The position numbers were made by a program, and so were the translations under genes. A DNA stretch of 35,160 nt. It comes from an uncultured Myxococcaceae bacterium (GTDB taxonomy: Bacteria; Myxococcota; Myxococcia; Myxococcales; UBA5297). Of this stretch, positions 5,716-22,696 are shown in pieces (positions within the stretch are counted from its first letter, which is position 1; every line of letters begins with the position of its first letter). The stretch lies in the NCBI GenBank assembly GCA_964485035.1, contig CAZAIE010000001.1:1-35160 (forward strand), given 5' to 3'. Below the pieces are notes generated by a model, which was not told the origin of the DNA, ran no database searches, and saw nothing but the letters and a program-made list of their open reading frames with translations.

Positions 5716-5789
5716 CGTCCTGCTCCATGCGCCGGGACTCGGCGCTCAAGCACTACGTCGGAAAGCAATGCCGGGGTCCACGCACCGGA

Positions 5790-5814
5790 GCGGGACGGCC
5801 CTCCGCCGTCCCGC
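5790..5814 (-). terminator. Stem-loop between the vWA lipoprotein gene and the giant ORF (possible attenuator or weak terminator)
   Basis: gcgggacgg (5790-5798) pairs with ccgtcccgc (5806-5814): a 9-bp perfect GC-rich stem with a 7-nt loop, 16 nt downstream of the upstream gene's stop. There is no U-tract. Confidence 0.3.
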
Positions 5815-5829
5815 TGCCGCCGCGGAAGG

Positions 5830-8800
5830 CTACTGCAGGCAGGCCACGTGGTAGCTGACGGCGATGGTCGAGCCGGGCTCGGGCACCGAGAGCGCATCGA
5901 AGTCGATGGCCGTCGCCGCCGAGTTGAACGACCAACGCGTGTCGTCGTAGGGCCCCTTCTCCGGGTACGGCACGCCGTCCACGGTGATGGTGATCTGCCC
6001 GTTGGCGGTGTCCGGCACGTTGGAGAGGAAGAACCGGGTGCGGTAGCCGAACGCCGTCTGCCCCAGCTTCTCCAGCGTGGTGGCCCAGTTCGGCGTGCAG
6101 ATCTCGTCGGAGACGCCGGCGCTCGCCTGCACCACCTGGCTGACGCGCAGGTTCTGGTGGGCGTCGGACTCGTCGTACGAGCACGAGCCCACCGGGCCGG
6201 TCTTCGGGACGATGCCGTTGAAGGTGAACATGTTCTGCCGCTTGAAGCCCTTAATTGTGAAGAAGGCGTTCAGGTAGAACGAGGTCGGGACGTCGTCCTG
6301 GTCGGCGGCGTCGGAGACCACCACGATGGCCAGATTGGCTTCGTCGCGCAGAAAGTTCTTGCTGCAGCTCGTCAGGTTGGGGTTGGTCAGGGCCAGGTAG
6401 GCCGGACGGATGAGCAACTCGAGGTAGTTGCCGCTGGTGCCCACCTTCACGTTCTGCTTGAAGACCGTCTCCGCGTTCGGGGTCTCGAGGGTGATGACGT
6501 CGTCGTTTCCCGGGGCCTTGAAGAAGCAGCCATTCAGGTCGTCGCCGCTGTCGGTCAACCCGCCGTGGGCCTCGTCCACGCCCGTGGTGGTGACGGCGAT
6601 GTGGTAGTCGACCTGCTGCGCCGCGGCGAACTTGATGAACGAGTCGAAGTTGTTGCCGAGGTTGGTCTGCTTGTCGGACATCGACCCCGAGCTGTCGATG
6701 ACGAAGAGCACGTCGACCTTGGGCTGCGGGTCCTGCGCGAAGATGTCCTCCTGGATCGCGGTGGTGTCGCCGCGGCCAGAGATCGGAATGACCGTGGGCT
6801 GGACCATCTGCGAGGTCTTGAGGGCGATGCTGCCCTGGTCGTCCCCCATGTCCGTCGGCGCGTACTTGGCCTTGAAGTCGGTCGAGTTGCCCGGGGCCAG
6901 GGTGTAGGGCAGGCGCGGCTTCTGGATGATGTGGAACTCCTGCGAGAGCCCCGTCTGCAGGTCGATGGACTCGATGATCTGGTCCTTGGAGCAGACGTTG
7001 TAGACGGTGAAGACGCGCTCGCGCGAGTTGCAGTTGATCTGGATGACGCCGAAGTCCAGCTCGTTGGGCGCGATGAGCAAGCACCCGGTCTGCGCGCTGC
7101 CGGCCAGCGCGACGCGCCCCTCGGGAGCGTCCTTGGACGAGATGTAGAACTCCACCGCGCCGGAGTAGGTGCGTGCGAGCTTCGGGCTGAAGCGCACTGG
7201 AATCTCCAGGGACTTGCCGCCCTCGATCTCGTAGTCGTTGATCGGGCCCTTCACAAGCGTGAAGGCCGGGTCGGTCCCGCGTGCGAACCCTAGTGTAGAA
7301 ACCAAGCACTTGTCCGCCGGGTTGGTCGACTTGTTTCGGATGTTGAACGACAACTGCAGACTCTTGCCTGGCTCCACGTTTCCGAAGTTCACCTGCGGGG
7401 GAACAACGTCGTAGTCGCAGGGCGGCATGGTCACCCCGTTCGCCTCAAGCGGAACCACAGTCACTGGCGCGTACGGGTCGTTCGAGAAGATTTTCAGTTG
7501 CGCGAGCTTTCTCCCTGGAACCTTGGGAGCAAACTTGACCCTCAGATCGGCGTTCTGGTTGGCCTCAGTCCCCGTGCATGATCCAGGATTCACGCAGGGA
7601 GCGGCGAGCCCAGTTGGTGCGTAGCCTTCCGGCGGCCACTCAACCGAGAACTCGCTGTCCGACGGTTCGATGACAACCCGCTTTTCGAGCCAACAGAGGC
7701 CGCGAAGGCAGGTATTCCCGTTCACGCAGTCGGTGTTCTTCGTGCAAGTAATCGCCGAAGCGGAGTCTGGCTCCATCAGCTTCAGATTGTCGTCGGTGAT
7801 CCCGACAACATTGGTCCCAACATTCGCGATAGTGATACGTCGCCGCTGGAAGGTGTCCACGGCGACCGAGCCGAAGTCCAAGCGCGTTGGCTGCACCTCG
7901 ATCGCCGGGCCGCCGCCGATGCCATTGAGGAGGAAGTAGCCGGTGGGGCGCTTGGCGTCGTTGGAGGTGAACCGGAGCTTTGCTTCGTGCTTGCCCAGCA
8001 CGCTCGGCCCGAAGGACAGCTTCACCTTCGCCGACTGACGGGCCTCCACCACCAGCTCCACCTGCTCAGCGTCGTCCTTGGCGAACGCGTTGCCCTTCGA
8101 GGACTCCTGCTCGATGCCCAGCCCGCTGACGGTGATGGGGGTGTTCCCGAGGTTCTTGAAGGTGACCTCGCCCGGGGCCTTGGCCTTGCCGTCCTTGCTG
8201 GGGTTCACGTACCCGAAGTCCAGCAGGCACTCCCACTTCTCCTGGCCGGTCACGGGGTTCTTCACCAGCACCTTGGGCTCGCACTCCAGGACCTGGTCGA
8301 CTCCCTGGCCGATGAGGGGGAGCACCACCGCACACATCGCCGGCTCGCTGATGGACAGCGCGGCCTGGTGCGGCCCCACGTGGTTCGGCTTGAACTCGAT
8401 GGGGACGACGATGTCGCCGTGCTTCGGGACCAGCATCTTGCCGGGGGTGAAGTTCGTGAGGCTGAAGGTCCCCTTGTCGGACTCCGCGATGAGGCCCTCG
8501 ACGTTGACCGTCCAGTCGAGCTCGGTGATGTTCTGGATCTTCACCTGCATGGGGAACGAGGTGCCCAGCGCCACCGAGCCGAAATCCACGTTCTCGACCG
8601 GGGTGACGACGCAGCCGCCCTTCACGCCGCGCCCGCTGAGGTTGATGACCAGCTCCGTGTTCTCGGACTGGGCGAGCTTCAGGCGGACCACGCCGGTGTG
8701 AGCCCCATCGGTCTTGGGCTCGAAGTAGAACGTGAGCTCCTGCTCCTGCTGGGCCTCGAGGTTGAAGTTTGTGATCTCGTAGTTGAACGAGACCTCGTCG

Positions 8801-9075
8801 AAGCCCGGGGCCTTCTCGATGGCGGTCACCTCCAGGATGCCGATCCCCAGGTTCTTCACCACGACCTTGCGCTCGACCCGCGTATCGACGAGCTGCGGCC
8901 CCCACTCGAGGGTCGTGGTCTCGACCTCACGCTTCCCGTCGATGGCGTCGTGCTCGATGATGGCGCCGCGCCCCTGAGCAGTCACAACAGGTGGATCGCC
9001 TTCGCATCCCTCGCAGCCGACGAGCAAGAGAAGCCCCGCGATCGCGGAAATAGCCAACCACTTGTTGTGGCGCAT
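5830..9075 (-). CDS. Large lipoprotein (1081 aa) with about six ASH/choice-of-anchor-D-like Ig modules and a C-terminal von Willebrand factor A (vWA) domain
   Basis: Complete ORF. N-terminus MRHNKWLAISAIAGLLLLVGC has a lipobox (LVGC). GGGAG lies 6 nt upstream of the ATG. The module hallmark x-DFG-x-V recurs (VDFGSVALG, LLDFGYV, RLDFGSVAV, VNFGNVEPG, ELDFGVIQI). vWA MIDAS motif DVLFVIDSSGSMS at residues about 788-800 (vWA roughly nt 6198-6720), followed by ...AVTTTG... and ...VVVSDAADQDD. Amino-acid composition is natural, unlike the overlapping shadow ORFs. Confidence 0.92.
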   Translation of the reverse strand: MRHNKWLAISAIAGLLLLVGCEGCEGDPPVVTAQGRGAIIEHDAIDGKREVETTTLEWGPQLVDTRVERKVVVKNLGIGILEVTAIEKAPGFDEVSFNYEITNFNLEAQQEQELTFYFEPKTDGAHTGVVRLKLAQSENTELVINLSGRGVKGGCVVTPVENVDFGSVALGTSFPMQVKIQNITELDWTVNVEGLIAESDKGTFSLTNFTPGKMLVPKHGDIVVPIEFKPNHVGPHQAALSISEPAMCAVVLPLIGQGVDQVLECEPKVLVKNPVTGQEKWECLLDFGYVNPSKDGKAKAPGEVTFKNLGNTPITVSGLGIEQESSKGNAFAKDDAEQVELVVEARQSAKVKLSFGPSVLGKHEAKLRFTSNDAKRPTGYFLLNGIGGGPAIEVQPTRLDFGSVAVDTFQRRRITIANVGTNVVGITDDNLKLMEPDSASAITCTKNTDCVNGNTCLRGLCWLEKRVVIEPSDSEFSVEWPPEGYAPTGLAAPCVNPGSCTGTEANQNADLRVKFAPKVPGRKLAQLKIFSNDPYAPVTVVPLEANGVTMPPCDYDVVPPQVNFGNVEPGKSLQLSFNIRNKSTNPADKCLVSTLGFARGTDPAFTLVKGPINDYEIEGGKSLEIPVRFSPKLARTYSGAVEFYISSKDAPEGRVALAGSAQTGCLLIAPNELDFGVIQINCNSRERVFTVYNVCSKDQIIESIDLQTGLSQEFHIIQKPRLPYTLAPGNSTDFKAKYAPTDMGDDQGSIALKTSQMVQPTVIPISGRGDTTAIQEDIFAQDPQPKVDVLFVIDSSGSMSDKQTNLGNNFDSFIKFAAAQQVDYHIAVTTTGVDEAHGGLTDSGDDLNGCFFKAPGNDDVITLETPNAETVFKQNVKVGTSGNYLELLIRPAYLALTNPNLTSCSKNFLRDEANLAIVVVSDAADQDDVPTSFYLNAFFTIKGFKRQNMFTFNGIVPKTGPVGSCSYDESDAHQNLRVSQVVQASAGVSDEICTPNWATTLEKLGQTAFGYRTRFFLSNVPDTANGQITITVDGVPYPEKGPYDDTRWSFNSAATAIDFDALSVPEPGSTIAVSYHVACLQ

Positions 9076-9845: not shown

Positions 9846-12353
9846 CTACACCGTGGTGAGCCGCTTCGACTCGCTGGGCTTCTCGGCCGGCTTCTCCTCG
9901 ACCTTCGGGACCTCGGCGAGCGCAGGACGGGAGCCGCCGCCCGGGACGGCCGCAGCAGGGTAGTCCGGACGCGTGTGGTAGATGCCGGTGAGGGTCCGGT
10001 AGAACGCCCGGGCGATCTCGTTGAGATCGCGCAGCGTGAGGTCGCACTCGTCGAGCTGACCGTCGGCGAAGATGCCGTTGATGATCTTCTGGACCAGCGC
10101 CTGCAGCTTTGCCGGGGTGGGCTCCTGCATCGCCCGGGAGCTGGCCTCGACCGCATCGGCGATCATCACCAGCGCGGTCTCGCGGGTCTGGGGCTTCGGG
10201 CCGCCGTAGCGGTACAGCCCTTCTTCCACGGGTGACGTGTCCGGCTTGCCTTCCAGGTCCTTGGTCGCCTTGTGGAAGAAGTAGCCGACCAGCCGCGTGC
10301 CGTGGTGCTGCGGGATGGCGTCGGCGACCTGCTTGGGCAACTTGTACTGCCGGGCCATCTCCATACCGTCGGTGACGTGGCGCTTGATGATGAGCGCGCT
10401 CATCTGCGGCGCGAGCTTGTCGTGGCGGTTGTCGCCGCGCTGGTTCTCGCCGAAGTAGAGCGGGTTCTTGCCCTTCCCGATGTCGTGGTAGTAGGCGCAC
10501 ACCCTGGCCAGCAGCGGGTTCGCGCCGATGGCCTCCGCGGCTGCCTCCACCAGGCTGCCGATGATGATCGAGTGGTGGTAGGTCCCCGGGGCCTGGACGA
10601 TGAGCTCCTTCAGCGCCGGGTGGTTCAGGTTCGCCAGCTCGAGCAGCTTGATGTCGGTCGTGTACCCGAACGCGGCCTCGACGAGCGGGGTCACGCCCAT
10701 GACCAGGATGGGCACCGCCAGCGCGCCACTGAGGAAGCCGCCCGCGCACCCCACCGCGACGCTCCAGCCGTTGGGCTTGTTGGTCAGCAGCGCGAAGCAG
10801 ATGACCGCGCACACGTTGGCGACGCCCGTGTAGAGCCCGGCCCGGAACAGCGCTGCCCGGTCGTTGGCGCGCGCCACCCGCGCCGAGGCGACCAGCGATC
10901 CCAAGAGCGCATAGAGCCCGAATTCCAGTGAGTTACCGACGAGAATGCCGACGAGACCCGAGAAGATGATGCTGAAGACCACCGCCGCCTCGGCCGTGAG
11001 CACGAAGCGGATGAGCATCGCCCCGGCGGCGAAGGGCGCGGCGTAGTAGAGAGCCTCTCCGCTGATCTGCGGGAAGCGGTCACGCAGGGCGTCGAAGATG
11101 GTGACGCTCAGGTTCACTAGCCCCAGCATCCCGACGACGGAGAAGGCCCCCAAGAGCGCGTCCTTCCGAGTCGGCCGGAACCGCCGCAGCGACGCCCGGG
11201 CGAACCCGTAGACGACCAGCACCACCAGCACTGCCACCAGGCCACCGCCGAGACGGACCAGCAGGCTCTCTTCGATCTTCGTCTGGCTGCGGATGGCACC
11301 GAAGATGACCAGATGCCGGTGCTCGATACGCTCGCCGTCGCCGATGATCTTCTCGCCCTTCTTGAGCTGGATGATCACCGGCTTCATGGAGTCCGACGCC
11401 GCCTGGCGCCGGCTCTCGGTCTCCTCGCGGTTGTAGCGGAGGTTGGCGCGCACCTCGCGGGAGGCGAGCATCGCCATCGCCCGGCGCAGCGACTGCGGCA
11501 GCTCGGTCGAGAGGTCGTTTGCCCAGCGCTCTGCGTCCTGCCGCACCTCAGCCTGGTCGCGGATGCCCGAGACGTCCGTGAGCACTTTCTCGCTCACCGT
11601 CTCGCCGCCGCTCTTCCGGCGCACGGTGATCCCCCGTCCGGAGGAGAGGGCAAGGGGCTCGCGGTACTCGGCGACCATCTGACCGGTCGCACGGGTGACC
11701 AGTCGCTCGGCCTCGCGTTGGATGTCCTCTCCGAAGCGGGCTTCGATGAAGGCCTTGAGTGCTTCGTCGTCGAGCTGCGTCTCCAAACGGCGATGCCACT
11801 CTTCCCGTCGCTCCAGCCAGACCTTCACCAGACCTTCAGGGACCTGGGACTCGTCTTTCCTGGCGGCTGGCCGCTTCTTGGGGTCCTCGGGGCGCGGCTC
11901 GACCTCGTGGGCCTTGAGCTTGACCTCCTCGGCCTTGCCGACCTCGCGCATGTACTGGAACGCCGAGCGGACCCGCTCGTGGGCCGACTCAGCGACCGTG
12001 ACGTCGTAGTCATAGACCGGCAGGACCGCGTCCCGGGCCTCGGCTCTCTTCCGGCGTGTGGTCTCCTCGTCAGGGATGTCGTAGTCGCGGGTCGCCTTGA
12101 CGACGGTGTTCGAGAACTGCCCGATGGAGTCGTCGCCGTACGGAATCCGCTGGCTGAAGAGCCCAGGGGTCAGGAGGTAGGCGCAGGCCAGCGCCACGAC
12201 GCCCAGGACCAGGAGGTTGGCGCCCCGGTTCAACCACCGCGCCCGGCGGTCAGCTTGGGAGGGCGGACGCTCCAGTGTGGGCTCGGTCTTCCCGGTCACT
12301 GGACCGGGTTTCGCGGCATCCCCTCTGGTGTCGTTCGGAGGCATGGCCCTCAA
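9846..12353 (-). CDS. pgpH: 7TM receptor with intracellular HD/HDIG phosphohydrolase domain (PgpH-like, candidate cyclic-di-AMP phosphodiesterase)
   Basis: 835-aa ORF: an N-terminal TM helix, a large charged extracytoplasmic domain, about 7 TM helices, then an HD domain (HHSIIIGSLVEAAAEAIG...YYHDIGKGKNPLYF...HHGT). The track start is TTG at 12353; ATG at 12344 is an equally plausible start. Confidence 0.88.
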   Translation of the reverse strand: MRAMPPNDTRGDAAKPGPVTGKTEPTLERPPSQADRRARWLNRGANLLVLGVVALACAYLLTPGLFSQRIPYGDDSIGQFSNTVVKATRDYDIPDEETTRRKRAEARDAVLPVYDYDVTVAESAHERVRSAFQYMREVGKAEEVKLKAHEVEPRPEDPKKRPAARKDESQVPEGLVKVWLERREEWHRRLETQLDDEALKAFIEARFGEDIQREAERLVTRATGQMVAEYREPLALSSGRGITVRRKSGGETVSEKVLTDVSGIRDQAEVRQDAERWANDLSTELPQSLRRAMAMLASREVRANLRYNREETESRRQAASDSMKPVIIQLKKGEKIIGDGERIEHRHLVIFGAIRSQTKIEESLLVRLGGGLVAVLVVLVVYGFARASLRRFRPTRKDALLGAFSVVGMLGLVNLSVTIFDALRDRFPQISGEALYYAAPFAAGAMLIRFVLTAEAAVVFSIIFSGLVGILVGNSLEFGLYALLGSLVASARVARANDRAALFRAGLYTGVANVCAVICFALLTNKPNGWSVAVGCAGGFLSGALAVPILVMGVTPLVEAAFGYTTDIKLLELANLNHPALKELIVQAPGTYHHSIIIGSLVEAAAEAIGANPLLARVCAYYHDIGKGKNPLYFGENQRGDNRHDKLAPQMSALIIKRHVTDGMEMARQYKLPKQVADAIPQHHGTRLVGYFFHKATKDLEGKPDTSPVEEGLYRYGGPKPQTRETALVMIADAVEASSRAMQEPTPAKLQALVQKIINGIFADGQLDECDLTLRDLNEIARAFYRTLTGIYHTRPDYPAAAVPGGGSRPALAEVPKVEEKPAEKPSESKRLTTV

Positions 12354-12380
12354 AGGAAACGCCGCGCGGCGGCGCGGCGA

Positions 12381-12402
12381 GGCGGATCGTGGCCGATCCG
12401 CC
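12381..12402. promoter_or_regulatory. Perfect 9-bp inverted repeat in the divergent pgpH / DUF721 intergenic region (candidate operator or hairpin)
   Basis: ggcggatcg-tggc-cgatccgcc, followed by ccccattttc. Confidence 0.3.
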
Positions 12403-12443
12403 CCCCATTTTCAACCTTCGCCGCCCTGCCCTCTTCCACGTCC

Positions 12444-12472
12444 TTGACGCAGCCCACCCACAAGGCGATACC
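12444..12472 (+). promoter_or_regulatory. Candidate sigma70-type promoter for the DUF721 gene
   Basis: TTGACG (12444-12449), a 17-nt spacer, then GATACC (12467-12472), with ATG at 12480 only 7 nt further on. This suggests a leaderless transcript. The -10 match is weak. Confidence 0.25.
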
Positions 12473-12479
12473 CGACCCA

Positions 12480-12779
12480 ATGGCGCGCTCCCACTTCGAG
12501 GACATGAAGGGTCCGCTCTCCCGGGCCCTACGCAAGGTCGCCGAGGCGGGTCCAGCCTCCGTGCTCGCTCCGGTCTGGGGCGAGGTCGTTGGCGCTGCCC
12601 TCTCCGAACGCTCTCGACCGGTCCTGCTCCAGGACGGCGTCCTCACCGTCGAGGCCGACCCGACGTTCATCGAGGACTTCGAGCGCGCCCGAGCGACCCT
12701 CCTCGAGCGGCTCAACGCTCGCCTGGGCCGCAACGCCGTCCGCACTCTCCGCTTCCTTCGCCAGGCAGGTCGCCGGTGA
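12480..12779 (+). CDS. DUF721 (DciA-like) small protein, 99 aa
   Basis: MARSHFEDMKGPLSRALRKV...LAPVWGEVVGAALSERSRPVLLQDGVLTVEADPTFIEDFERARATLLERLNARLG has the DUF721 shape (W..ivG......s.p..l..g.L.v.v.s..w..el). It is the natural-looking tail of the track ORF 11313..12779. Confidence 0.8.
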   Translation: MARSHFEDMKGPLSRALRKVAEAGPASVLAPVWGEVVGAALSERSRPVLLQDGVLTVEADPTFIEDFERARATLLERLNARLGRNAVRTLRFLRQAGRR

Positions 12780-13924
12780 CCCATGCCATCCTGTTCGCGC
12801 TGCTTCTCGGTGCCGCTCCGCCCCAAGCGACGTGCGACTCGCTGACCGACGAGCGAAGCGCCCTCGCCTCTTCGATCGTCCAGGCGTACCGGACGGCGAA
12901 GCAGGAAGCGCCCAGGGCCGACGAGATGCTGAGCCGCGCTGCGATGTTCCTGGCCGAGCAGGCCGTGCGGAGTTCAGTCCACGCTGCCACGGGCTCAGAG
13001 GCGCTGGGGAGGACCCTGTCCGCCGCGGGTGCGTGGGATCCGCCGCCGCGGGCGGTCGCGGTCCGGGCGACGCCGCCAGCGCACGCCTTCGCGACTCTCG
13101 GAGCGAGGAATGACCTGGCCTCCACCCCAGCCAGTCACTTCGGGCTGGGCTGCGCAACCAACGCCTCGGGGTCGGCGGTGGTCGTGGCGCTGTTCACCGA
13201 GCGCAAAGCCTGGCTCGAGCCGTTCCCCCGCGAGGTCGAGCCCGGAGTCGCGCAGATGCTCCGCGGCGAGCTGACCTTCCCGCGCTACGACGCGCAGGTC
13301 TTCGTCACCGGGCCCAAGGGCACCACCCGCCACCGCTCGCTCGCGACCGAGGCCCGGAACCGCTTCGCCGTCCGGGTCCCGTTCCCCGAGCCGGGTCGCT
13401 ACACCGTCGAGGTCGTCGCGCAGAGCGTGAAGGGTCCCGAGGTGGCCGCGCTGTTCCAGGTCCAGGCAGGGCCTGAGACGCCCTCGACTCCCCGCGCGGT
13501 CGACGCGCGCAGCGACCCCCTGGACGACGCCCAGGCGACGGCGGCGGTCCTCTCCGCCATCAATCACCGGCGGCGCGCCGCGGGGCTTGCGCCGCTCGCC
13601 AGGAGCAGCCTGCTGGACACCCTGGCCGCCGACCACTGCGCCGAGATGGCGAGGCTGGGCTACTTCGCCCACGTCTCGCCGATCCAGGGCGACGTCGCGG
13701 CGCGGGCCCGGAAGGCCGGGTTCCGCTACGTGCGCATCACCGAGAACCTGGGAGAGGCCTCCGGAGCGCTGGAGGCCCACCGATTGATCGAGGCGTCGCC
13801 GGGCCACCTCGCCAACGTGCTCGACCCCGGGGTGGAGCTGGCAGGCATCGGCGTCTCGCGGGTGCAGCGTGGCGGGCTGTCCAACGTCCTGGTGACCGAG
13901 GTCTTTGCCCGGCCTGCGCCCTGA
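12776..13924 (+). CDS. Secreted CAP/SCP (PR-1-like, YkwD-type) domain protein
   Basis: GTG at 12776 overlaps the upstream stop (GTGA), implying translational coupling. N-terminus (M)THAILFALLLGAAPPQATC resembles a signal peptide. C-terminal CAP domain: AVLSAINHRRRAAGLAPL...LAADHCAEMARLGYFAHVSP...ITENLG...SPGHLANVL. The part of the track ORF upstream of 12776 looks non-coding. Confidence 0.8.
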   Translation: MTHAILFALLLGAAPPQATCDSLTDERSALASSIVQAYRTAKQEAPRADEMLSRAAMFLAEQAVRSSVHAATGSEALGRTLSAAGAWDPPPRAVAVRATPPAHAFATLGARNDLASTPASHFGLGCATNASGSAVVVALFTERKAWLEPFPREVEPGVAQMLRGELTFPRYDAQVFVTGPKGTTRHRSLATEARNRFAVRVPFPEPGRYTVEVVAQSVKGPEVAALFQVQAGPETPSTPRAVDARSDPLDDAQATAAVLSAINHRRRAAGLAPLARSSLLDTLAADHCAEMARLGYFAHVSPIQGDVAARARKAGFRYVRITENLGEASGALEAHRLIEASPGHLANVLDPGVELAGIGVSRVQRGGLSNVLVTEVFARPAP

Positions 13925-13926
13925 GG

Positions 13927-16875
13927 GTGCTATCGTGTCCGCGTCTTCCGGACGATCGTGAGGCAGCGGTGGCGAGCGGTTCCCTGGTTCCAGGCGAGTG
14001 GGTCCCGAGCAGGCTGCTGCTGTACCGCGCGTTGCTCGCCTCGCCCTCCTTCGACCTCGCAGCCTGGGTCGACCCGCTGCTGATCGGCCTGCCCTTCCGC
14101 CTCGGTGAGTCCACGGCCGAAGCGACCATCCCCTTCGCCTTCGACGACGACTTCAACGACCTCGCCGAGGTCGCGGTGGACGACCTCGCCGACCTGTTGC
14201 GGCGCCGCCGCGATCCTCCACCTGCCGGACTCGACCTCGACGGCTCGGCCCGCCGGCTGCCCCCCGCGACCTCGTCCCTGGGCGGCTTCCCCGAGGGCTC
14301 GCTGGCCCTGCCCATCGCCGCGCGGGTGCTGCGCCTGGACGCTGGCTTGGACTGCGGAATCGTCGAGGGCTGGGTCCCGCGCGGCCATGGCGGTCCCCTG
14401 CTCGAGCGGCTCTCGGCGCTCTACGGACGGCTGCTCGAGGAGGACCTGCGCACGGGCGGGGGCGCGGCCCACCTCGCGCTCGGGCTCCTGGGAACGCTGG
14501 GCCACCTCGAGTCGAAGAAGGTCCGCGCCAAGGGGCTGGTCACCCGCGCCCTCACGCCGGAGAAGCTCGACCACACCCTCGGCGCCGCGCTCTTCGGCCT
14601 GGTCGAGGGAGCGCTCGAGCGGGCCCTCTGCTCACGCAGCGGGGTTCCCGCGGCGCTCGAGCTCCAGGCACGCGCCCTCCTCTGCCCCCTGGCCTTCGTC
14701 TCGACGCGGCAGAAGGCCATCCAGGCGGAGGTCAACGCCTGGGGCCTGCCGGAGTCGTTCGCCGAGGCCGCCGACCGGGTGTGGCTGGCGCTGCTCGAGG
14801 AGAACCCCAACCCGCGCGCCGCCGAGCAGCGCATCACCGCCGCCTTCCTCGACCTTCCCGAGCTGCGGGCGCGCGCCGCGAGCGCCGGGGCGATCCTGCT
14901 TGCCCGCAAGCGCGCCTTCGACTGGCTGGCCTGCTACGACGGCATCGACCCCGAGGTGAGCGCCGCAGTGGGCGCCTTCGCCCGCTCCGAGGCGACACTG
15001 TGCGCGACGCTGCAGGAGCCCAAGGGTCTGCTCCAGCGCCTGCAAAAGCTCTCGAAGAGCCTCAAGCCGGACGCCGCCGGTGACGCTGCCACCGCCGCGC
15101 TCGTCGAGAGCCTGCGCCGCGGGCCCGAGCGCGACGATGCGGTCCGGGAGGTCGCCGCGGCCTACGTGGTCCTGGCCTTCGACCGCGTGACCGTGGGAGC
15201 CATCGACCGGGCGCGCAGCCGCCTCAAGGACCGGCGCCTCGAGTACCCGCGCGAGCGGCTGGTCGCCGACTACCTCGCGGGCCGCCTGTACCGCCTCTCC
15301 GCCGACGGCAAGCCCATCCGCCGCGCGCTCTCGCGCAAGACGCAGGGCCACCTCTTCATCGACCTCAAGGGCTTCACACAAAGGACCTACCGCGCCAAGG
15401 AACTGGTGATGGCGGAGTTCTTGCGCACCGAGTTCTACGAGCCCATCCTCGCCGCGGCGGCGCGCCGGGCCGAGGGGCTGGGCGGCGAGCGGCTGCTGAC
15501 CCTGCAGAACCTGCTCGGCGACGCCGCGGTCTTCTCCGGCCAGATGCCGGCGCTCGTCGAGCTGGCCCAGGACATCCAGCGCGCGTGCCGGGCCTACGCC
15601 GAGAAGCTGCGCGCGCGCACCGGCTCCGACGGCCGCGACCTGGACGCACGCCGGGCTGAGGTCGAGACCCGGCTGCGCGGCGAGTTGGACCGGCTGCGAG
15701 GCGACGCGGCGATCATCGAACGAGAGATGCAGGCGCAGCGGGCCGCGCCTTCGGCCCAGCTCGAGCAGCAGCTCTTCGGCACCCTCGCCCAGCGGATCGC
15801 CGACCTCGACGCGCGCCGGCACGACGCCCTGCAGCGCGGCCGCATCCCCGACGCCCAGCGCGCCGAGGAGGCCGCCGCGGCGATACGCCAGCGCGAGAAG
15901 GACCTCTTCGCCCGCGTCGAGCCGCTGTTCGGGGCCGCGCGTGATCAGCTCATCGCCGACTTGGTCCTCGCCGAGGACCGCACGCGCCTGCGGGAACTCG
16001 AACGGCGCGCCGCGGAGACCCGTGCCTGGGCCCAGGGACAGCTCCGGGCGCTCGAGGAAGAAGCGCGCTCCACCCGGGGCGGCGGACTGGAGGCGGGACT
16101 CTTCATCACCTTCGGCGCCAACGCCGAGGTGGCCACCATGTCCGAGGCGAGCTTCGGGCCGGTGAAGGTGGCCATCGCCGAGAAGATCAACGAGGCGGCC
16201 CGCGGCACCGCCCGCAACGGCATCATCAAGAGCAAGCTCGACGCGCTGCTCGGACGCGCCCGCGCCCAGCGCAACAACCCGCGCCTCGACCTGCCCTTCC
16301 GCGTCTACGTGGACTCCGCGAGCAACCTGCTGCTCCCGACCGAGCTCACCGAGATGATCGACACGGCCGTGCGCGAGCGCGATCCGGGCAGGGCTCGAGA
16401 AGCCGCGCGCGGGGTCGCGGAGATGGTCCTGCGCGACCTCGCCCGGGCGATGGGCATGGGAGACGGCCAGCAGGCGGAGGCGCTGACCACGCTGAGCGAC
16501 ATCTACAACACCGGCGAGGCGCTCTCAGGGGAGGCCGCGGCGGCCTACCTCACGCAGACCGCGCCCGGGCGGGTGTGGTTCCGCAAGGTGCTCGCGACCG
16601 AGGACCTCGACCCCGAGTTCCACGAACTCTTCCTTTTCCTGCAGGACTCGCTCGAGCTGGCAATCTCAGTCCCGGCGGACGGCGACGCCGATCGGGCCAT
16701 CGTGTTCCGGCGCGCGGGGCAGGTGCAGTTCCGGGGCTTCGAGGCCAAGTCGCCGACGTCGGTCTGGGAGCTGCTGCGCGCCGACTCGCCGTTCGCGCTC
16801 TTGCTGGCCCAGAAGCACGTCCCGCTCTGGGCAGCCGAGGCACGAGAGCAGCCGCCGGGCGAGCTTCCGACCTGA
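13927..16875 (+). CDS. 982-aa cytoplasmic protein with divergent class III nucleotidyl-cyclase-like (palm) motifs split by a long probable coiled-coil insertion
   Basis: GTG lies 3 nt after the CAP gene stop. Natural composition over the whole length. Motifs: GHLFIDLKGFT (res 474-484, nt 15346-15378), LLGDAAVFSG (res 529-538), LEAGLFITFGANAEV (res 721-735), VKVAIAEKINEAARGT (res 746-761). Between the second and third motifs lies a charged heptad-like stretch of about 160 aa (RAEVETRLRGELDRLRGDAAIIEREMQAQ...LRALEEEARS). The exact start is uncertain. Confidence 0.85.
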   Translation: MLSCPRLPDDREAAVASGSLVPGEWVPSRLLLYRALLASPSFDLAAWVDPLLIGLPFRLGESTAEATIPFAFDDDFNDLAEVAVDDLADLLRRRRDPPPAGLDLDGSARRLPPATSSLGGFPEGSLALPIAARVLRLDAGLDCGIVEGWVPRGHGGPLLERLSALYGRLLEEDLRTGGGAAHLALGLLGTLGHLESKKVRAKGLVTRALTPEKLDHTLGAALFGLVEGALERALCSRSGVPAALELQARALLCPLAFVSTRQKAIQAEVNAWGLPESFAEAADRVWLALLEENPNPRAAEQRITAAFLDLPELRARAASAGAILLARKRAFDWLACYDGIDPEVSAAVGAFARSEATLCATLQEPKGLLQRLQKLSKSLKPDAAGDAATAALVESLRRGPERDDAVREVAAAYVVLAFDRVTVGAIDRARSRLKDRRLEYPRERLVADYLAGRLYRLSADGKPIRRALSRKTQGHLFIDLKGFTQRTYRAKELVMAEFLRTEFYEPILAAAARRAEGLGGERLLTLQNLLGDAAVFSGQMPALVELAQDIQRACRAYAEKLRARTGSDGRDLDARRAEVETRLRGELDRLRGDAAIIEREMQAQRAAPSAQLEQQLFGTLAQRIADLDARRHDALQRGRIPDAQRAEEAAAAIRQREKDLFARVEPLFGAARDQLIADLVLAEDRTRLRELERRAAETRAWAQGQLRALEEEARSTRGGGLEAGLFITFGANAEVATMSEASFGPVKVAIAEKINEAARGTARNGIIKSKLDALLGRARAQRNNPRLDLPFRVYVDSASNLLLPTELTEMIDTAVRERDPGRAREAARGVAEMVLRDLARAMGMGDGQQAEALTTLSDIYNTGEALSGEAAAAYLTQTAPGRVWFRKVLATEDLDPEFHELFLFLQDSLELAISVPADGDADRAIVFRRAGQVQFRGFEAKSPTSVWELLRADSPFALLLAQKHVPLWAAEAREQPPGELPT

Positions 16876-19629: not shown

Positions 19630-19677
19630 ACCTGACAGCCGTCTTGATGGCCGCTCGGTAGCGTCCCGTGAAAGCAG

Positions 19678-19709
19678 CGGAGGGTCCTTCCAACTCGAAG
19701 GACCCTCCG
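19678..19709. terminator. Strong hairpin between convergent genes (bidirectional terminator candidate)
   Basis: cggagggtccttc-caactc-gaaggaccctccg: a 13-bp perfect stem with a 6-nt loop, between the slt stop (19629) and the stop of the minus-strand CBM20 fragment (19734). Confidence 0.6.
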
Positions 19710-19733
19710 TGCTCACTCGAATGCCGCTCTCGC

Positions 19734-20690
19734 TCAGGGGTTCGTATACGTCGTCCGCGCCCCCATCGAGCCGGACGGATCCGGTCGGTCCGCAAACACG
19801 TCCACGATGACCATCTTCCCGTCCCCGTTGGTGTCGTCGACCGTGAAGCCGCGGTTGGTCAGCGGGAACTCCTCCGAGGCCCCCCAGCCGTCGTCGAGCT
19901 TTCCGATCGTGTACTTGTAGTTCACCGCCGTGAGCGGTGGCACCAGCAGCCGGAAGGTCCAGTAGTTGTCCAAGGCCGTCGCGTCGCCGAGGGTAGTCCC
20001 GTCGTCCGACATCCCGATGGAGTTGGGCTTCCAGTTCCCCAACTCCGCGAGGCTGCCCACAATGAACGCCTTCCCGGTGCCGGCCGGCGGCGGCGGGTTG
20101 TCGATGGGCTTCACCGCGGTGAGCGGCAGCTTGGTCCCGGTGGCGTCGAGGATGAACGTGACCTCGACCATGCGCGAGCGGTCCTGGAAGAGCACCGTGG
20201 CGTTCGCGTTCGGGAAGCGATCCAGCTCCGCGGTGCTCGAACCCGCGGTGACCACCATCTCCAGCGGATCCATCGTTGCGGGCGTCGCGGAGTAGAGGAA
20301 GTTGAGCGCCGCATACGGGATGCCCACCTCGAGGACGTCGGTGCTCGCCGCAGTGGCGAACCCGACGGTGATGGTGGCCTCGGCCGCCGGTGCAGCCCAC
20401 GCACCGTCCGCGACGGCCGCAAGCTTGGCGACGGGCGCCGTCCCGGAGAAGTCGATGGTGACTTCACGGGCCGCGCCGCCCGCAGTCATCGCGATGGCCG
20501 CGCCGGTCCGGGTCTTGGCCAGGAACGGGTCCTGGACCACCGGGGTCGCCAGGTGCTTCTGCGAGAAGTACAGCCGGACCTGGAAGTCGGTCCCCACGCG
20601 GGTCGCGAGGTTCTCGTTCATGCGCAGGCCCACGTTCACGCCGGTCGCGCTGACCCCGTGGTAGACGACGCCGAGCACGTCCTTCGCGCT
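19734..20690 (-). pseudogene. C-terminal fragment of a carbohydrate-active protein carrying a CBM20-like starch-binding module; the N-terminus is missing
   Basis: Natural sequence runs from about ...DVLGVVYHGVSATGVNVGLRMNEN... to the stop. CBM20-like signature: KAFIVGSLAELGNWKPN...YWTFRLLVPP...VNYKYTIG...EEFPLTNRGFTV (about nt 19800-20060). There is no signal peptide or credible start/RBS. The track's first roughly 18 residues (MWCSTAARRKRVSCPSWP) are the antisense shadow of the permease gene. The left junction lies somewhere in 20665-20731. Confidence 0.6.
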
Positions 20691-20730
20691 GGGCCAGCTG
20701 GGGCAGCTCACCCGCTTCCGCCGCGCCGCG

Positions 20731-21612
20731 GTGGAGCACCACACCGCCTACCTCTACCTGTCGCCCGCGATGATCGGCATGCTGGTGCTGGTCTTCATCC
20801 CGGTGGTGTACGGCATCGTGCTCGGCTTCATGGAGCGCCGGTACAACCTCTTCGAGTTCGCGGGGCTCTCGAACTACGCGACCATCCTCGGCGACTTCAA
20901 CGTCACCCACCCGCAGAACTTCTACTTCAAGCTCGCGGTCACGGTGGCCTGGACGGTCATCAACGTCTCGCTGCACGTGAGCATCGGCCTCTTCCTGGCG
21001 CTCTTGCTCAACGACCAGATGCTCAAGGCCCGCGGCTTCTTCCGCGCCATCCTGGTCATCCCCTGGGCGCTGCCGAACTACATCACCTCGCTGATCTGGA
21101 AGGGGATGTTCCACAAGCAGTTCGGCGCGGTGAACTTCTTCCTCGAGGGGCTGGGCGTCGAGCCGGTCGCCTGGTTCCAGAACTTCGGGACCTCGTTCAC
21201 CACCAACGTGGTGACCAACACCTGGCTCGGCTTCCCCTTCATGATGGTCATCTCGCTGGGGGCGCTGCAGAGCATCCCGGCGGACCTCTACGAGGCGGCC
21301 GAGGTGGACGGCGCGACGCGCTGGCAGCGCTTCTGGAACATCACCCTGCCGCTGCTGCGGCCGGCGCTGGTCCCCGCGGTCATCGTGGGCACGGTGTGGA
21401 CCTTCAACGCCTTCAACATCATCTACCTGGTGAGCGGTGGCGCCCCCAACGGCGCGACCGACATCCTCATCACCGACGCGTTCCGCTGGGCGTTCGAGCG
21501 CGACCGCTACGGCTACGCTGCGGCGTACTCCACGCTCATCTTCCTGGTCCTCATCTTCTTCACGCTGGCCACCAACCGCCTCACCAAGGCGACGAAAGGG
21601 GCCTACGAATGA
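20731..21612 (+). CDS. CUT1-family sugar ABC transporter permease (MalF-like); the 5' end is probably clipped
   Basis: ...AYLYLSPAMIGMLVLVFIPVVYGIVLGF..., six TM segments, EAA loop YEAAEVDGATRWQRFWNITLPLLRPAL. The frame is open and GC3-rich from 20665 (…LGQLGQLTRFRRAAVEHHTAY), but the only ATG/GTG/TTG start is GTG at 20731. The expected basic N-terminal region therefore appears to lack a start codon. Confidence 0.7.
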   Translation: MEHHTAYLYLSPAMIGMLVLVFIPVVYGIVLGFMERRYNLFEFAGLSNYATILGDFNVTHPQNFYFKLAVTVAWTVINVSLHVSIGLFLALLLNDQMLKARGFFRAILVIPWALPNYITSLIWKGMFHKQFGAVNFFLEGLGVEPVAWFQNFGTSFTTNVVTNTWLGFPFMMVISLGALQSIPADLYEAAEVDGATRWQRFWNITLPLLRPALVPAVIVGTVWTFNAFNIIYLVSGGAPNGATDILITDAFRWAFERDRYGYAAAYSTLIFLVLIFFTLATNRLTKATKGAYE

Positions 21613-22037
21613 GCAGCGCGACCCCGCTGGAGAAACGCCCGTTCCGGCTGGAGGACGCGGCCAAGCTCATCTTCCTGAGCCTGTTCTCGCTCTTCACCGT
21701 CTACCCGGTGCTGTGGGTCTTCAAGATGGCCTTCTCGCCGGCGCAGGGGTTCGACTCCTCGCTGAACCCCATCCCCTCGAACCCCTCGCTGTCCAACTTC
21801 GCGCACCTGTTCTTCGAGCGGCCGTTCGTCACCTGGCTGTTCAACAGCGCGCTGGTGAGCGCGGCGACGACGCTCCTGGGCGTGTTCCTGGCCTGCACCG
21901 CCGCCTACGCGCTCAGCCGGTTCCGCTTCCCGGGGCGGGCGACGATGATGCTGTCCTTCCTGGTGACCCAGATGTTCCCGGGCGTCCTGATGATGATCCC
22001 GCTGTACCTCATCATGGACACCCTGGGGCTGCTGGAC
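21609..22037 (+). pseudogene. CUT1-family sugar ABC permease (MalG-like), 3'-truncated after about 143 codons
   Basis: ATGA overlap with the upstream permease stop. MSSATPLEKRPFRLEDAAKLIFLSLFSLFTVYPVLWVFKMAFSP...LVTQMFPGVLMMIPLYLIMDTLGLLD; the frame then continues as R/G/H-rich junk (antisense of the next gene) to 22586. The EAA loop and last TM helices are absent. Confidence 0.7.
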
Positions 22038-22559
22038 CTGCTCGTCGAGGTCCGCGTACCACGTGCCGTTCGCCGGGTCCTGTGCGCGCGCGATGAGCCA
22101 CTCGGTCCCCGCCCGCGCCAGCTCGAGCAGCGACTCGTCTCCGGTGAGCATGTAGCCGATGGAGTACGTGAAGACCTGCCGACCGATCATCCGCGGCTTG
22201 CGGTCCGTCGCCACCACCCGGCCGTCCATGCCGCGGGTCGTGGGGAAGTTGCCGACGGGGCTGCCCTTGGCCACGTTCATGGTCCAGTACGGCAGCAGCT
22301 CGTCGGTCAGGTGCTGCGTCCAGAACTGCGGCGTCAGCTTGGTGAGCGGGAAACCCGTGTCGGGGGCCCCGGCGTCCGGCTCGGCTGCGGCGTCGGGCGC
22401 ACCCCCCGCATCGGGCGCGTCACCCGCGTCGCTGACGACCTGCGCGGCGTCCTCGCCCGCAAGGCTCGCATCCAGCTCGACGTCCTTGGGGTTGCAGGCG
22501 ACCAGCCCGAGGAGGAGCGCGAAGACCAGCGACCAGCGCAGCAGGAGACGGGGGTTCAT
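22038..22559 (-). pseudogene. N-terminal fragment (about 173 aa) of a lipoprotein with an AGE / (alpha/alpha)6-barrel-like domain; the C-terminal part is missing
   Basis: MNPRLLLRWSLVFALLLGLVAC has a lipobox and is followed by a low-complexity D/A/P linker. Then FWTQHLTDELLPYWTMNV...RMIGRQVFTYSIGYMLTGDESLLELARAGTEWLIARAQDPANGTWYADLDEQ. After this point the track ORF (down to 21603) becomes H/R/E/Q junk antisense to the MalG-like gene. The family call is motif-level only. Confidence 0.55.
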
Positions 22560-22696
22560 CCGCGCTCACCATCCAGTCTGCGGTGAAGGTCATCCAACCT
22601 GCCGGACAGCTCCCGGGACCGCAGACCCAGTTCCGTCCGGCCTTGCTCCAGATGCCACTGTGACGGTAGCGCGCCCGCGGGGCCTGCGCTGCCTCC

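What the first reader, a model, noticed from the sequence alone, without database searches (positions are those of the whole stretch)
13927..16875. 982-aa protein has class III nucleotidyl-cyclase-like catalytic motifs split by an insertion of about 160 aa
**Motifs in canonical order.** Four short motifs occur in the order and approximate spacing of a cyclase-homology (palm) domain:
- GHLFIDLKGFT (compare F-x-D-I-x-GFT, first metal Asp, D479).
- LLGDAAVFSG (compare iGDa.ma.FG, second metal Asp, D532).
- LEAGLFITFGANAEV (compare l.vriGihtG.v).
- VKVAIAEKINEAARGT (compare y.v.Gd.VN.AsR, with Asn755 and Arg759).

**Unusual insertion.** Where canonical enzymes have a dimerisation arm of about 40 residues, this protein has about 185 residues dominated by charged heptad-like sequence.

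**Context.** The domain is preceded by about 470 aa of helical sequence with no motif I recognise, and followed by about 200 aa. The gene sits 3 nt downstream of a secreted CAP-domain gene and a DUF721 gene. If the fold assignment holds, this is a very divergent and possibly unannotated nucleotide cyclase or second-messenger synthase architecture.
Basis: inference. Interest (0 to 1): 0.7.

Follow-up and report, generated by a model that had tools for sequence, protein, structure and literature searches.

The report
Divergent cyclase with coiled-coil insertion
This gene encodes a very divergent member of the adenylyl/guanylyl cyclase (class III) enzyme fold. A long helical insertion interrupts the domain, standard domain databases miss it, and it represents a family found almost only in Myxococcota.

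Summary
The observation and its interpretation both hold. ORF 13927-16875 (+) is a real, conserved gene. Its four motifs belong to a genuine class III cyclase homology domain (CHD).

- **Sequence searches fail.** Pfam, NCBIfam, PADLOC and PDB sequence searches find nothing.
- **Structure succeeds.** An AlphaFold model with the insertion removed matches only class III adenylyl/guanylyl cyclases (Foldseek top 50; best E=1e-7, about 150 columns, rmsd 2.6 A).
- **Catalytic residues are conserved.** Of 96 diverse homologues, 82 keep D479, D532, N755 and R759 together. Most deviants lose several at once.
- **The insertion is real and variable.** It sits between helix alpha3 and strand beta4, not in the dimerisation arm. 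It adds about 144 residues and ranges from absent to about 195 aa across the family.
- **There is a second insertion.** Residues 803-922 are also inserted, so the CHD runs to about residue 955.
- **Some canonical residues are replaced.** The base-specifying pair is Asn/Val and the beta4 arginine is Gly, so the product is unknown.

The family covers 316 clusters and 155 species. It lies in core chromosomal contexts and is nearly always annotated "hypothetical". I rate it a new variant of a known kind, of moderate interest.

The parts
13927..16875 (+). Whole gene, 982 codons from GTG 13927. The more likely start is GTG 13969, giving 968 aa.
   Evidence: Searches show the ORF. An identical 968-aa protein is in the database, and full-length homologues share 27-68% identity. 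The family has 316 cluster representatives.
13999..15276 (+). N-terminal all-helical domain (residues about 25-450). No recognisable family. I take it to be a regulatory or scaffold module.
   Evidence: The AF2 secondary structure is all helices with pLDDT mostly 85-95. There are no Pfam, NCBIfam or PDB sequence hits. It is moderately conserved, with 6 of 461 positions at 90% or more.
15331..15606 (+). CHD part 1 (residues 469-560): beta1, alpha1, beta2, beta3 and alpha3. It holds metal Asp D479 (15361-15363), N528 (15508-15510) at the Lys specificity position, and metal Asp D532 (15520-15522).
   Evidence: hhalign register, Foldseek and conservation.
15607..16065 (+). Insertion 1 (residues 561-713). 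Long antiparallel helices rich in Ala, Arg, Leu and Glu, emerging between alpha3 and beta4.
   Evidence: AF2 places helices at 540-565, 568-606, 609-636, 640-664 and 670-716. No position is conserved at 90% or more. Its length falls into classes of 22-44, 61-119 and 167-195 aa across the family. Canonical spacing is 54 against 198 here.
16066..16332 (+). CHD part 2 (residues 714-802): beta4, arm, beta5, alpha4 and beta6. It holds G724 at the canonical beta4 Arg position, V748, E752, N755 (16189-16191), R759 (16201-16203) and R763.
   Evidence: hhalign register and conservation.
16333..16692 (+). Insertion 2 (residues 803-922). An alpha/beta subdomain between alpha5 and beta7, carrying the near-invariant motif Y860-N861-x-G863-xxx-S867.
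   Evidence: hhalign leaves this stretch unaligned while aligning both flanks to the CHD. Foldseek alignments of 332-341 columns to 190-216-residue cyclases reach TM 0.60-0.70.
16693..16791 (+). CHD part 3 (residues 923-955): the beta7-beta8 hairpin 'FRRAGQVQFRGFEAKSPTSVWELL'. R936 (16732-16734) sits at the canonical gamma-phosphate Lys. G931 and E948 are near-invariant.
   Evidence: hhalign aligns it to 'lGe..vKGK..PV.vy.v' at the end of PF00211. Position 936 is K in 45 and R in 43 of 96.
12776..13924 (+). Upstream partner gene: a CAP/SCP-domain protein of about 382 aa from GTG 12776, with a hydrophobic signal-like N-terminus. Its stop lies 2 nt before GTG 13927.
   Evidence: Pfam CAP E=1.6e-12. 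It lies immediately upstream on the same strand, overlapping or up to 65 nt away, in nearly all of 21 related loci at 26-68% target identity. In L009 the gap is about 2 kb.
12480..12779 (+). DciA/DUF721 gene (99 aa from ATG 12480). Its stop overlaps the CAP start by 4 nt. It is linked only in close relatives.
   Evidence: Pfam DciA E=8.5e-10. It is present in only 6 loci.

Best explanation
The gene encodes a soluble, cytoplasmic and highly divergent class III nucleotidyl cyclase.

**Shown.**
- Residues about 469-955 form a complete cyclase homology domain (palm fold).
- Two insertions interrupt it. One is a long antiparallel helical hairpin or bundle at the alpha3-beta4 junction (residues 561-713). 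The other is an alpha/beta subdomain between alpha5 and beta7 (residues 803-922).
- An all-helical domain of about 450 aa precedes the CHD.

**Inferred.**
- The enzyme works as a head-to-tail homodimer, as bacterial class III cyclases do.
- It uses the two-metal mechanism. D479 and D532 hold Mg2+ or Mn2+. N755 and R759 on alpha4 position the ribose and stabilise the alpha-phosphate transition state. R936 contacts the gamma-phosphate.
- The product is a 3',5'-cyclic nucleotide plus pyrophosphate.
- Base specificity cannot be read from the sequence. The canonical Lys/Asp (ATP) or Glu/Cys (GTP) pair is replaced by a conserved Asn528 and Val748, and the canonical beta4 Arg is Gly724.
- The helical insertion protrudes from the surface that regulators use in other cyclases. 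It is most likely a dimerisation or partner-binding and regulatory module, dispensable for the fold.
- The N-terminal helical domain is the likely input domain.
For: **Fold.**
- Foldseek with the insertion-deleted model returns only class III cyclases in the top 50. The best is CyaC 1wc3_B at E=1.2e-7, with TM to target 0.57, rmsd 2.6 A, 153 columns and 20% identity. CyaB 3r5g_B reaches TM 0.70 over 339 columns.
- The full-length model gives the same families in split alignments.

**Homology.** hhalign gives P=3.4e-5 over template positions 1-185, against shuffled controls of at most 23.8 versus a real score of 40.8.

**Active site.**
- D479, D532, N755 and R759 are kept together in 82 of 96 members that share only about 25-30% identity overall.
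- Ten of the 14 deviants lost two or more, and all six that lost D532 also lost N755.
- N528 is Asn in 75 of 82 intact members but only 3 of 14 deviants.
- Nineteen of the 31 positions conserved at 90% or more fall in the 221 CHD residues.

**Insertion is dispensable.** Natural members have 22-44 residues at the site and intact motifs. The deleted construct folds confidently.

**Soluble.** There is no hydrophobic segment; the highest Kyte-Doolittle 19-residue window is 1.43.
Against: - No sequence-level match to PF00211 or to any PDB cyclase, even with a 71-sequence profile.
- Three canonical substrate-contact positions are non-canonical. These are N528 for Lys, V748 for Asp/Thr/Cys, and G724 for Arg. 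The V748 equivalence rests on strand continuity, because hhalign places a gap nearby.
- Gly482 of the phosphate-binding F.D..GFT loop is Asp in 52 of 96 members.
- No activity, dimer or ligand evidence exists.
- No cyclic-nucleotide receptor or effector gene is consistently linked.
Confidence: 0.62

Rival explanations
1. It is a pseudo-cyclase. The CHD fold is retained as a nucleotide-binding or purely structural and regulatory module. The protein acts through its helical N-terminal domain and coiled-coil, for example as a scaffold, without making a cyclic nucleotide.
For: - The canonical base-specifying pair and the beta4 Arg are replaced.
- Two large insertions interrupt the domain.
- About 15% of family members, including close relatives P0004 and P0006, have lost catalytic residues yet remain full-length. 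A non-catalytic role therefore exists in the family.
Against: - The window protein itself has the intact signature D-N-D-V-N-R-R.
- Strict joint conservation of the two metal Asp, the Asn and the Arg in 82 of 96 members at about 25-30% overall identity is hard to explain without catalysis or at least metal-NTP binding.
Confidence: 0.2
2. It is an active palm-domain nucleotidyltransferase with chemistry other than 3',5'-mononucleotide cyclisation. Examples are a dinucleotide, an oligonucleotide, or another NTP-derived signal.
For: - Substrate-contact residues are non-canonical but conserved (N528, V748, G724, E722, R763).
- A conserved extra subdomain (Y860, N861, G863, S867) and E948 may reshape the pocket.
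Against: - The alpha4 N-x-x-x-R motif and the beta7-beta8 Lys/Arg are those of class III cyclases.
- No GGDEF or Cas10 structure appears in the Foldseek top 50.
- There is no GG[DE]EF or GGDD motif at the beta2-beta3 turn, which reads LLGDAAVF.
Confidence: 0.13
3. The motif resemblance is chance in a helix-rich, high-GC protein, and there is no cyclase domain.
For: No Pfam, NCBIfam, PADLOC or PDB sequence hit at E<=10.
Against: - Foldseek E=1e-7, with 105 hits at E<=1e-3 and the top 50 all cyclases.
- hhalign is far above shuffled controls.
- The motifs are the most conserved parts of the protein.
Confidence: 0.02

Closest known systems
Bacterial class III adenylyl/guanylyl cyclases (PF00211), e.g. 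CyaC of Spirulina platensis (PDB 1WC0-1WC6), Cya2 (2W01), CyaB of P. aeruginosa (3R5G)
   Same: - Same palm fold; these are the best structural matches, at E 1e-7 to 1e-6 and rmsd 2.5-3.3 A.
- Same order and register of the metal Asp pair, the alpha4 Asn and Arg, and the beta7-beta8 Lys/Arg.
- All catalytic residues sit on one chain, as in homodimeric bacterial enzymes.
   Different: - Below detection by the Pfam model.
- About 144 extra residues between alpha3 and beta4, and about 120 between alpha5 and beta7.
- Asn/Val at the base-specifying positions and Gly at the beta4 Arg.
- A unique 450-aa helical N-terminal domain instead of the usual HAMP, GAF, PAS or transmembrane inputs.
Trypanosomal receptor-type adenylyl cyclases (GRESAG4 family), which carry a 'delta-subdomain' inserted between alpha3 and beta4 (Bieger and Essen 2001; from my own knowledge, not checked here)
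   Same: An extra helical element inserted at the same alpha3-beta4 junction of a class III domain.
   Different: - The trypanosomal insert is a short two-helix element of a few dozen residues.
- Here it is absent, about 70-120 aa, or about 170-195 aa depending on lineage.
- Here it forms long antiparallel helices.
Mammalian adenylyl cyclase C1/C2 (PDB 1AZS, 1CJK)
   Same: - Same fold.
- In these enzymes the alpha2-alpha3 groove next to the alpha3-beta4 loop is the docking site for Gs-alpha and Gi-alpha (Tesmer et al. 1997; own knowledge). The insertion here emerges from that regulatory surface.
   Different: - Those are pseudo-heterodimers of two CHDs in one chain, regulated in trans.
- This protein has one CHD and a built-in helical module.
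Pycsar pyrimidine cyclases (PycC)
   Same: They are class III-like cyclases whose base-specifying residues differ from the Lys/Asp and Glu/Cys rules (PMC11224242).
   Different: - No PADLOC hit.
- No TIR or transmembrane effector neighbour.
- The context is core chromosomal.
- The architecture is much larger.

Membership tests
Class III nucleotidyl cyclase (cyclase homology domain, PF00211) | Palm (beta-alpha-beta-beta-alpha-beta) CHD fold superimposable on solved cyclases | tested here: met
   Foldseek with the insertion-deleted model returns only class III AC/GC in the top 50. E ranges from 1.2e-7 to 1e-4, TM to target 0.5-0.7, and rmsd 2.5-3.5 A over about 145-155 columns. The full-length model gives the same families.
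Class III nucleotidyl cyclase (cyclase homology domain, PF00211) | Scores above the Pfam PF00211 gathering threshold | tested here: not met
   No PF00211 hit at E<=1 for the window protein. None at E<=10 for 5 insertion-deleted constructs, 10 natural short-insert members, or 10 further members including those named 'cyclase' by JGI or NCBI.
Class III nucleotidyl cyclase (cyclase homology domain, PF00211) | Profile-profile homology across the whole domain | tested here: met
   hhalign of the 96-member profile against 120 PF00211 domains gives P=3.4e-5, probability 72% and 172 columns covering template 1-185. Shuffled controls reached at most 23.8 against 40.8. The probability is moderate, not decisive on its own.
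Class III nucleotidyl cyclase (cyclase homology domain, PF00211) | Two metal-binding aspartates (beta1 F.D..GFT and the beta2-beta3 GD turn) | tested here: met
   D479 is kept in 95 of 96 and D532 in 90 of 96. Both align to the canonical Asp residues.
Class III nucleotidyl cyclase (cyclase homology domain, PF00211) | Transition-state Asn and Arg on alpha4 (GD.VN.A.R) | tested here: met
   The motif AEKINEAAR carries N755 (84 of 96) and R759 (87 of 96, plus 3 Lys), in the canonical register.
Class III nucleotidyl cyclase (cyclase homology domain, PF00211) | Substrate-defining pair: Lys/Asp(Thr,Ser) for ATP or Glu/Cys(Ser) for GTP | tested here: not met
   N528 sits three residues before the Gly of GD, where Lys or Glu is expected. 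V748 sits seven residues before N755. Both are conserved (78 and 81 of 96). The V748 equivalence is by strand register and was not checked by structural superposition.
Class III nucleotidyl cyclase (cyclase homology domain, PF00211) | Phosphate-binding Arg at the start of beta4 and Lys in the beta7-beta8 hairpin | tested here: inconclusive
   The Arg position is G724 in 94 of 96 members. The Lys position (936) is K in 45 and R in 43 of 96. R763 (94 of 96) or R486 could substitute for the Arg; this was not tested.
Class III nucleotidyl cyclase (cyclase homology domain, PF00211) | Head-to-tail dimer forming the active sites, and NTP to cNMP + PPi activity | not testable with these tools
   No multimer prediction or biochemistry was available.
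GGDEF diguanylate cyclase (PF00990) | GG[DE]EF signature at the beta2-beta3 hairpin, and a PF00990 match | tested here: not met
   The hairpin reads LLGDAAVFSG. There is no PF00990 hit and no GGDEF structure in the Foldseek top 50.
Cas10 / minimal CRISPR polymerase palm | GGDD motif and CRISPR or defence context | tested here: not met
   There is no GGDD motif, no such structure in the Foldseek top 50, and no PADLOC hit.
Pycsar pyrimidine cyclase (PycC) | Match to PADLOC PycC models and an adjacent TIR or transmembrane effector | tested here: not met
   No PADLOC hit at E<=10. The neighbours are CAP, DciA and SLT, or glnB-glnA, a creatininase-like gene and a metal ABC transporter.

The most novel reading that the evidence does not exclude
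This is a Myxococcota-wide, chromosomally fixed second-messenger synthase whose remodelled pocket makes something other than cAMP or cGMP. The pocket carries Asn528/Val748 in place of Lys/Asp or Glu/Cys, Gly724 in place of the beta4 Arg, and an extra conserved Y-N-x-G-xxx-S subdomain. The product could be, for example, a cyclic pyrimidine nucleotide or another NTP-derived signal. It would act in housekeeping physiology rather than phage defence. A built-in coiled-coil at the surface used by G-proteins in animal cyclases would control activity.
Probability: 0.15. Interest if true: 0.75.

Novelty: new variant of a known kind. Interest (0 to 1): 0.5.

Why it matters
Class III cyclases are the universal makers of cAMP and cGMP, and surveys of them rely on PF00211. 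Here is a family of at least 316 sequence clusters in 155 species that such surveys miss entirely. It includes cultured Archangium and Vitiosangium.

- It shows that the cyclase fold tolerates an insertion of up to about 195 aa at the alpha3-beta4 regulatory surface, plus a second subdomain.
- Its conserved but non-canonical base-contact residues leave the product open.
- If active, it adds an unrecognised second-messenger source to organisms known for complex signalling.
- Natural insert-free, half-insert and full-insert variants offer a ready-made series for studying how an inserted coiled-coil regulates a cyclase.

Tried and rejected
**Sequence-level detection all failed.**
- Pfam and NCBIfam on the full protein.
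- PADLOC.
- phmmer and hmmsearch against PDB sequences with the single protein, the 17-sequence profile, the insertion-deleted profile and a 71-sequence profile. These gave only coiled-coil noise such as apolipoproteins and nucleoporin p62.
- Pfam on insertion-deleted constructs, on natural short-insert members, and on members that JGI or NCBI call cyclases.

Using the construct as first row over full-length homologues worked.
- A Pfam scan of the whole 71-member alignment exceeded the size limit.

**Readings rejected.**
- GGDEF, Cas10 and Pycsar (see the membership tests).
- A defence-island reading, because the contexts are core-genome synteny.
- A functional link to the neighbouring PgpH-like HD phosphodiesterase, seen in only 7 loci, 6 of them close relatives.

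**Dead ends.**
- Literature searches found no description of this family.
- One paper's held text lacked the passage I sought.
- The N-terminal domain gave no structural or sequence relative. The Wzc/Wzz hits have rmsd above 30 A and reflect long helices only.
Full report
**1. The gene**

The window holds an ORF from GTG 13927 to TGA 16875, 982 codons on the + strand. An identical protein in the public collection is called at 968 aa. That matches the in-frame GTG at 13969, and homologue N-termini align there. The protein has no hydrophobic segment; the highest Kyte-Doolittle 19-residue mean is 1.43. It is therefore probably cytoplasmic.

**2. Sequence methods see nothing**

- Pfam and NCBIfam give no family at E<=1, and PADLOC gives none at E<=10.
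- phmmer and hmmsearch against all PDB sequences return only coiled-coil noise. I used the single protein, a 17-sequence profile, an insertion-deleted profile and a 71-sequence profile.
- Removing the insertion by hand does not rescue a PF00211 hit. Neither does using natural family members that lack it, or members that JGI or NCBI name as cyclases.

**3. Structure and profile-profile comparison confirm the cyclase fold**

The full-length AlphaFold2 model has pLDDT 83. Its Foldseek search against the PDB listed class III adenylyl/guanylyl cyclases in more than 30 of the top 50. E-values were weak (0.08-0.9) and the alignments covered about 90-100 columns, because the insertion splits them.

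I then modelled residues 462-560 joined to 714-982, using full-length homologues as the alignment. This model has pLDDT 85 and pTM 0.80. Its Foldseek results were as follows:
- There were 105 matches at E<=1e-3, and the top 50 were all class III cyclases.
- The best was CyaC 1wc3_B, with E=1.2e-7, rmsd 2.6 A, 153 columns and 20% identity.
- CyaB 3r5g_B reached TM 0.70 over 339 columns.

Independently, I collected 120 true PF00211 domains and compared them with the family using hhalign:
- The 16-sequence insertion-deleted alignment gave P=1.5e-4.
- The 96-member alignment gave P=3.4e-5, probability 72% and 172 columns spanning template positions 1-185.
- Sixty column-shuffled controls scored at most 23.8 and the reversed control 15.2, against the real score of 40.8.

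**4. Anatomy**

The hhalign register gives these equivalences:

| Residue here | Canonical equivalent |
|---|---|
| D479 | first metal-binding Asp (F.D..GFT) |
| D532 | second metal-binding Asp (GD) |
| G.F..G at 724-730 | R.GihtG |
| E752, N755, R759 | GD.VN.A.R |
| AGQVQFRGFEAKSPTSVWELL (929-949) | terminal lGe..vKGK..pv.vy.l hairpin, with R936 at the Lys |

The cyclase domain therefore runs from about residue 469 to 955 and carries two insertions.

*Insertion 1 (residues 561-713).*
- It extends helix alpha3 into long antiparallel helices (AF2 helices 540-716).
- The distance from D532 to G730 is 198 residues, against 54 in 89 of 100 canonical domains. That is about 144 extra residues.

*Insertion 2 (residues 803-922).*
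- It is an alpha/beta subdomain between alpha5 and beta7.
- It has its own near-invariant motif: Y860, N861, G863 and S867.

An all-helical domain of about 450 aa with no detectable relatives precedes the CHD.

**5. The family**

The word-indexed search found only 18 relatives. An exhaustive profile search found 316 cluster representatives at E<=1e-3, of which 181 were at E<=1e-30. A scan of one genome per species found relatives in 155 species. Nearly all are Myxococcota, and they include cultured Archangium gephyra, A. violaceum, A. lansingense and Vitiosangium. No Myxococcus xanthus homologue was seen among the listed hits.

In 96 full-length members:

| Position | Conserved in |
|---|---|
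| D479 | 95 |
| D532 | 90 |
| N755 | 84 |
| R759 | 87 |
| R763 | 94 |
| G538, G730, G760, G931 | 96 each |

- 82 members keep all four catalytic residues.
- Ten of the 14 deviants lost two or more, and all six that lost D532 also lost N755.
- N528 is Asn in 75 of 82 intact members but only 3 of 14 deviants.
- This joint retention and joint loss is what an active site predicts, although the sequences are not phylogenetically independent.
- Nineteen of the 31 positions conserved at 90% or more lie in the 221 CHD residues. Insertion 1 has none.
- Insertion 1 falls into length classes of 22-44 (effectively absent), 61-119 and 167-195 residues. The window protein has 179. It is thus a lineage-specific and dispensable elaboration at a single site.

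**6. What is non-canonical**

- The Lys or Glu that reads the base, three residues before the Gly of GD, is Asn528.
- The second specificity position, seven residues before N755, is Val748.
- The beta4 Arg is Gly724.
- Gly482 is Asp in about half the family.

The roles of the canonical residues are taken from established work on mammalian AC and CyaC (Tesmer 1997/1999, Steegborn 2005, Linder and Schultz 2003). That is my own knowledge and was not re-read here. Pycsar cyclases show that class III-like enzymes can use quite different specificity residues (PMC11224242). The product cannot be predicted from the sequence.

**7. Context**

DciA (12480-12779), a CAP-domain gene with a signal-like N-terminus (12776-13924) and the cyclase are packed with a 4-nt overlap and a 2-nt gap. 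The CAP gene lies immediately upstream on the same strand in nearly all of 21 loci, including relatives at only 26-35% identity, and often overlaps the cyclase start. In one locus (L009) the gap is about 2 kb. This pair is probably an operon in that clade.

In another clade the neighbours are different:
- A divergent glnB-glnA pair lies upstream.
- A creatininase-like gene and metal ABC transporter genes lie downstream.

Other relatives lie next to T3SS genes or to an M28-PDZ peptidase gene. These are core-genome contexts, not defence islands.

**8. Annotation status**

Almost every record is 'hypothetical protein' with no Pfam domain. JGI names a few Archangium homologues 'class 3 adenylate cyclase'. 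NCBI names one partial protein 'nucleotidyl cyclase domain-containing protein'. I found no paper describing the family.

**9. Verdict**

- The fold and homology assignment is secure, at about 0.95.
- That the protein is an active two-metal NTP cyclase is likely but unproven, at about 0.6.
- Its product, oligomeric state and input signal are unknown.

It is a new variant of a known kind. It is moderately interesting as a Pfam-invisible, phylum-restricted cyclase architecture with an unusual insertion and unusual specificity residues.

Noticed in passing
window 9846-12353 (-): A 7TMR-HDED / 7TM-7TMR_HD / HD-domain membrane protein is transcribed divergently from the DciA-CAP-cyclase cluster. This is the PgpH-type architecture, a family known from my own knowledge to include c-di-AMP phosphodiesterases. 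The adjacency is seen in only 7 loci, 6 of them close relatives, so a functional link to the cyclase is not supported.
   Followed up: partly
window 12776-13924 (+) and loci L002, L012-L025, L038: A CAP/SCP-domain protein with a signal-like N-terminus is encoded immediately upstream of the cyclase in nearly all of 21 loci, down to about 26% cyclase identity. It often overlaps the cyclase start. Pairing a secreted-type protein with a cytoplasmic cyclase-like protein has no explanation so far.
   Followed up: partly
window 11313-12779 (+) and 12275-13924 (+): Both listed ORFs are over-extended, as is common in high-GC DNA. Only the last 99 codons (from ATG 12480) are DciA. The CAP gene most likely starts at GTG 12776, overlapping the DciA stop by 4 nt.
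   Followed up: yes
window 520-7293 (+) versus 5830-9075 (-): The 2257-aa + strand ORF has no Pfam hit and overlaps a - strand gene with Ig-like ASH/Cep192/HYDIN domains. In the syntenic locus L001 the genes here are on the opposite strand, including a giant CARDB/He_PIG protein. The long + ORF is probably an antisense artefact.
   Followed up: partly
P0004 and P0006 (63% and 58% identical to the window protein); also P0146, P0189, P0233, P0250, P0256, P0274: Full-length family members have lost several catalytic residues at once, for example D479E, G531S and N755H in P0004, and N755R and R759L in P0006. These look like naturally occurring pseudo-enzyme derivatives.
   Followed up: partly
L023 and L027 (both from MAG ERP125453_co1_442): Two paralogous copies of the family occur in one genome bin.
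   Followed up: no
L066, L067, L071-L073, L076, L083 upstream; L080 and L081 downstream (Archangium, Vitiosangium and related MAGs): A canonical transmembrane-HAMP class III adenylyl cyclase (ERREVTILFADVVGFT...) lies on the opposite strand within about 2.3 kb of the divergent cyclase in 9 loci. It is upstream in seven and downstream in two.
   Followed up: no
L028-L082 (short-insert clade): A divergent glnB (PII) and glnA (glutamine synthetase) pair lies just upstream of the family member in 16-22 loci. A creatininase-like gene and metal ABC transporter genes lie downstream. This is conserved core synteny of unknown relevance.
   Followed up: no
window 19668-22586 (+): This 972-aa ORF has only a weak C-terminal MalG-like match. 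The inner ORF 20731-21612 carries a clear ABC permease domain (BPD_transp_1, E=1.4e-21). The long ORF is likely over-extended.
   Followed up: partly
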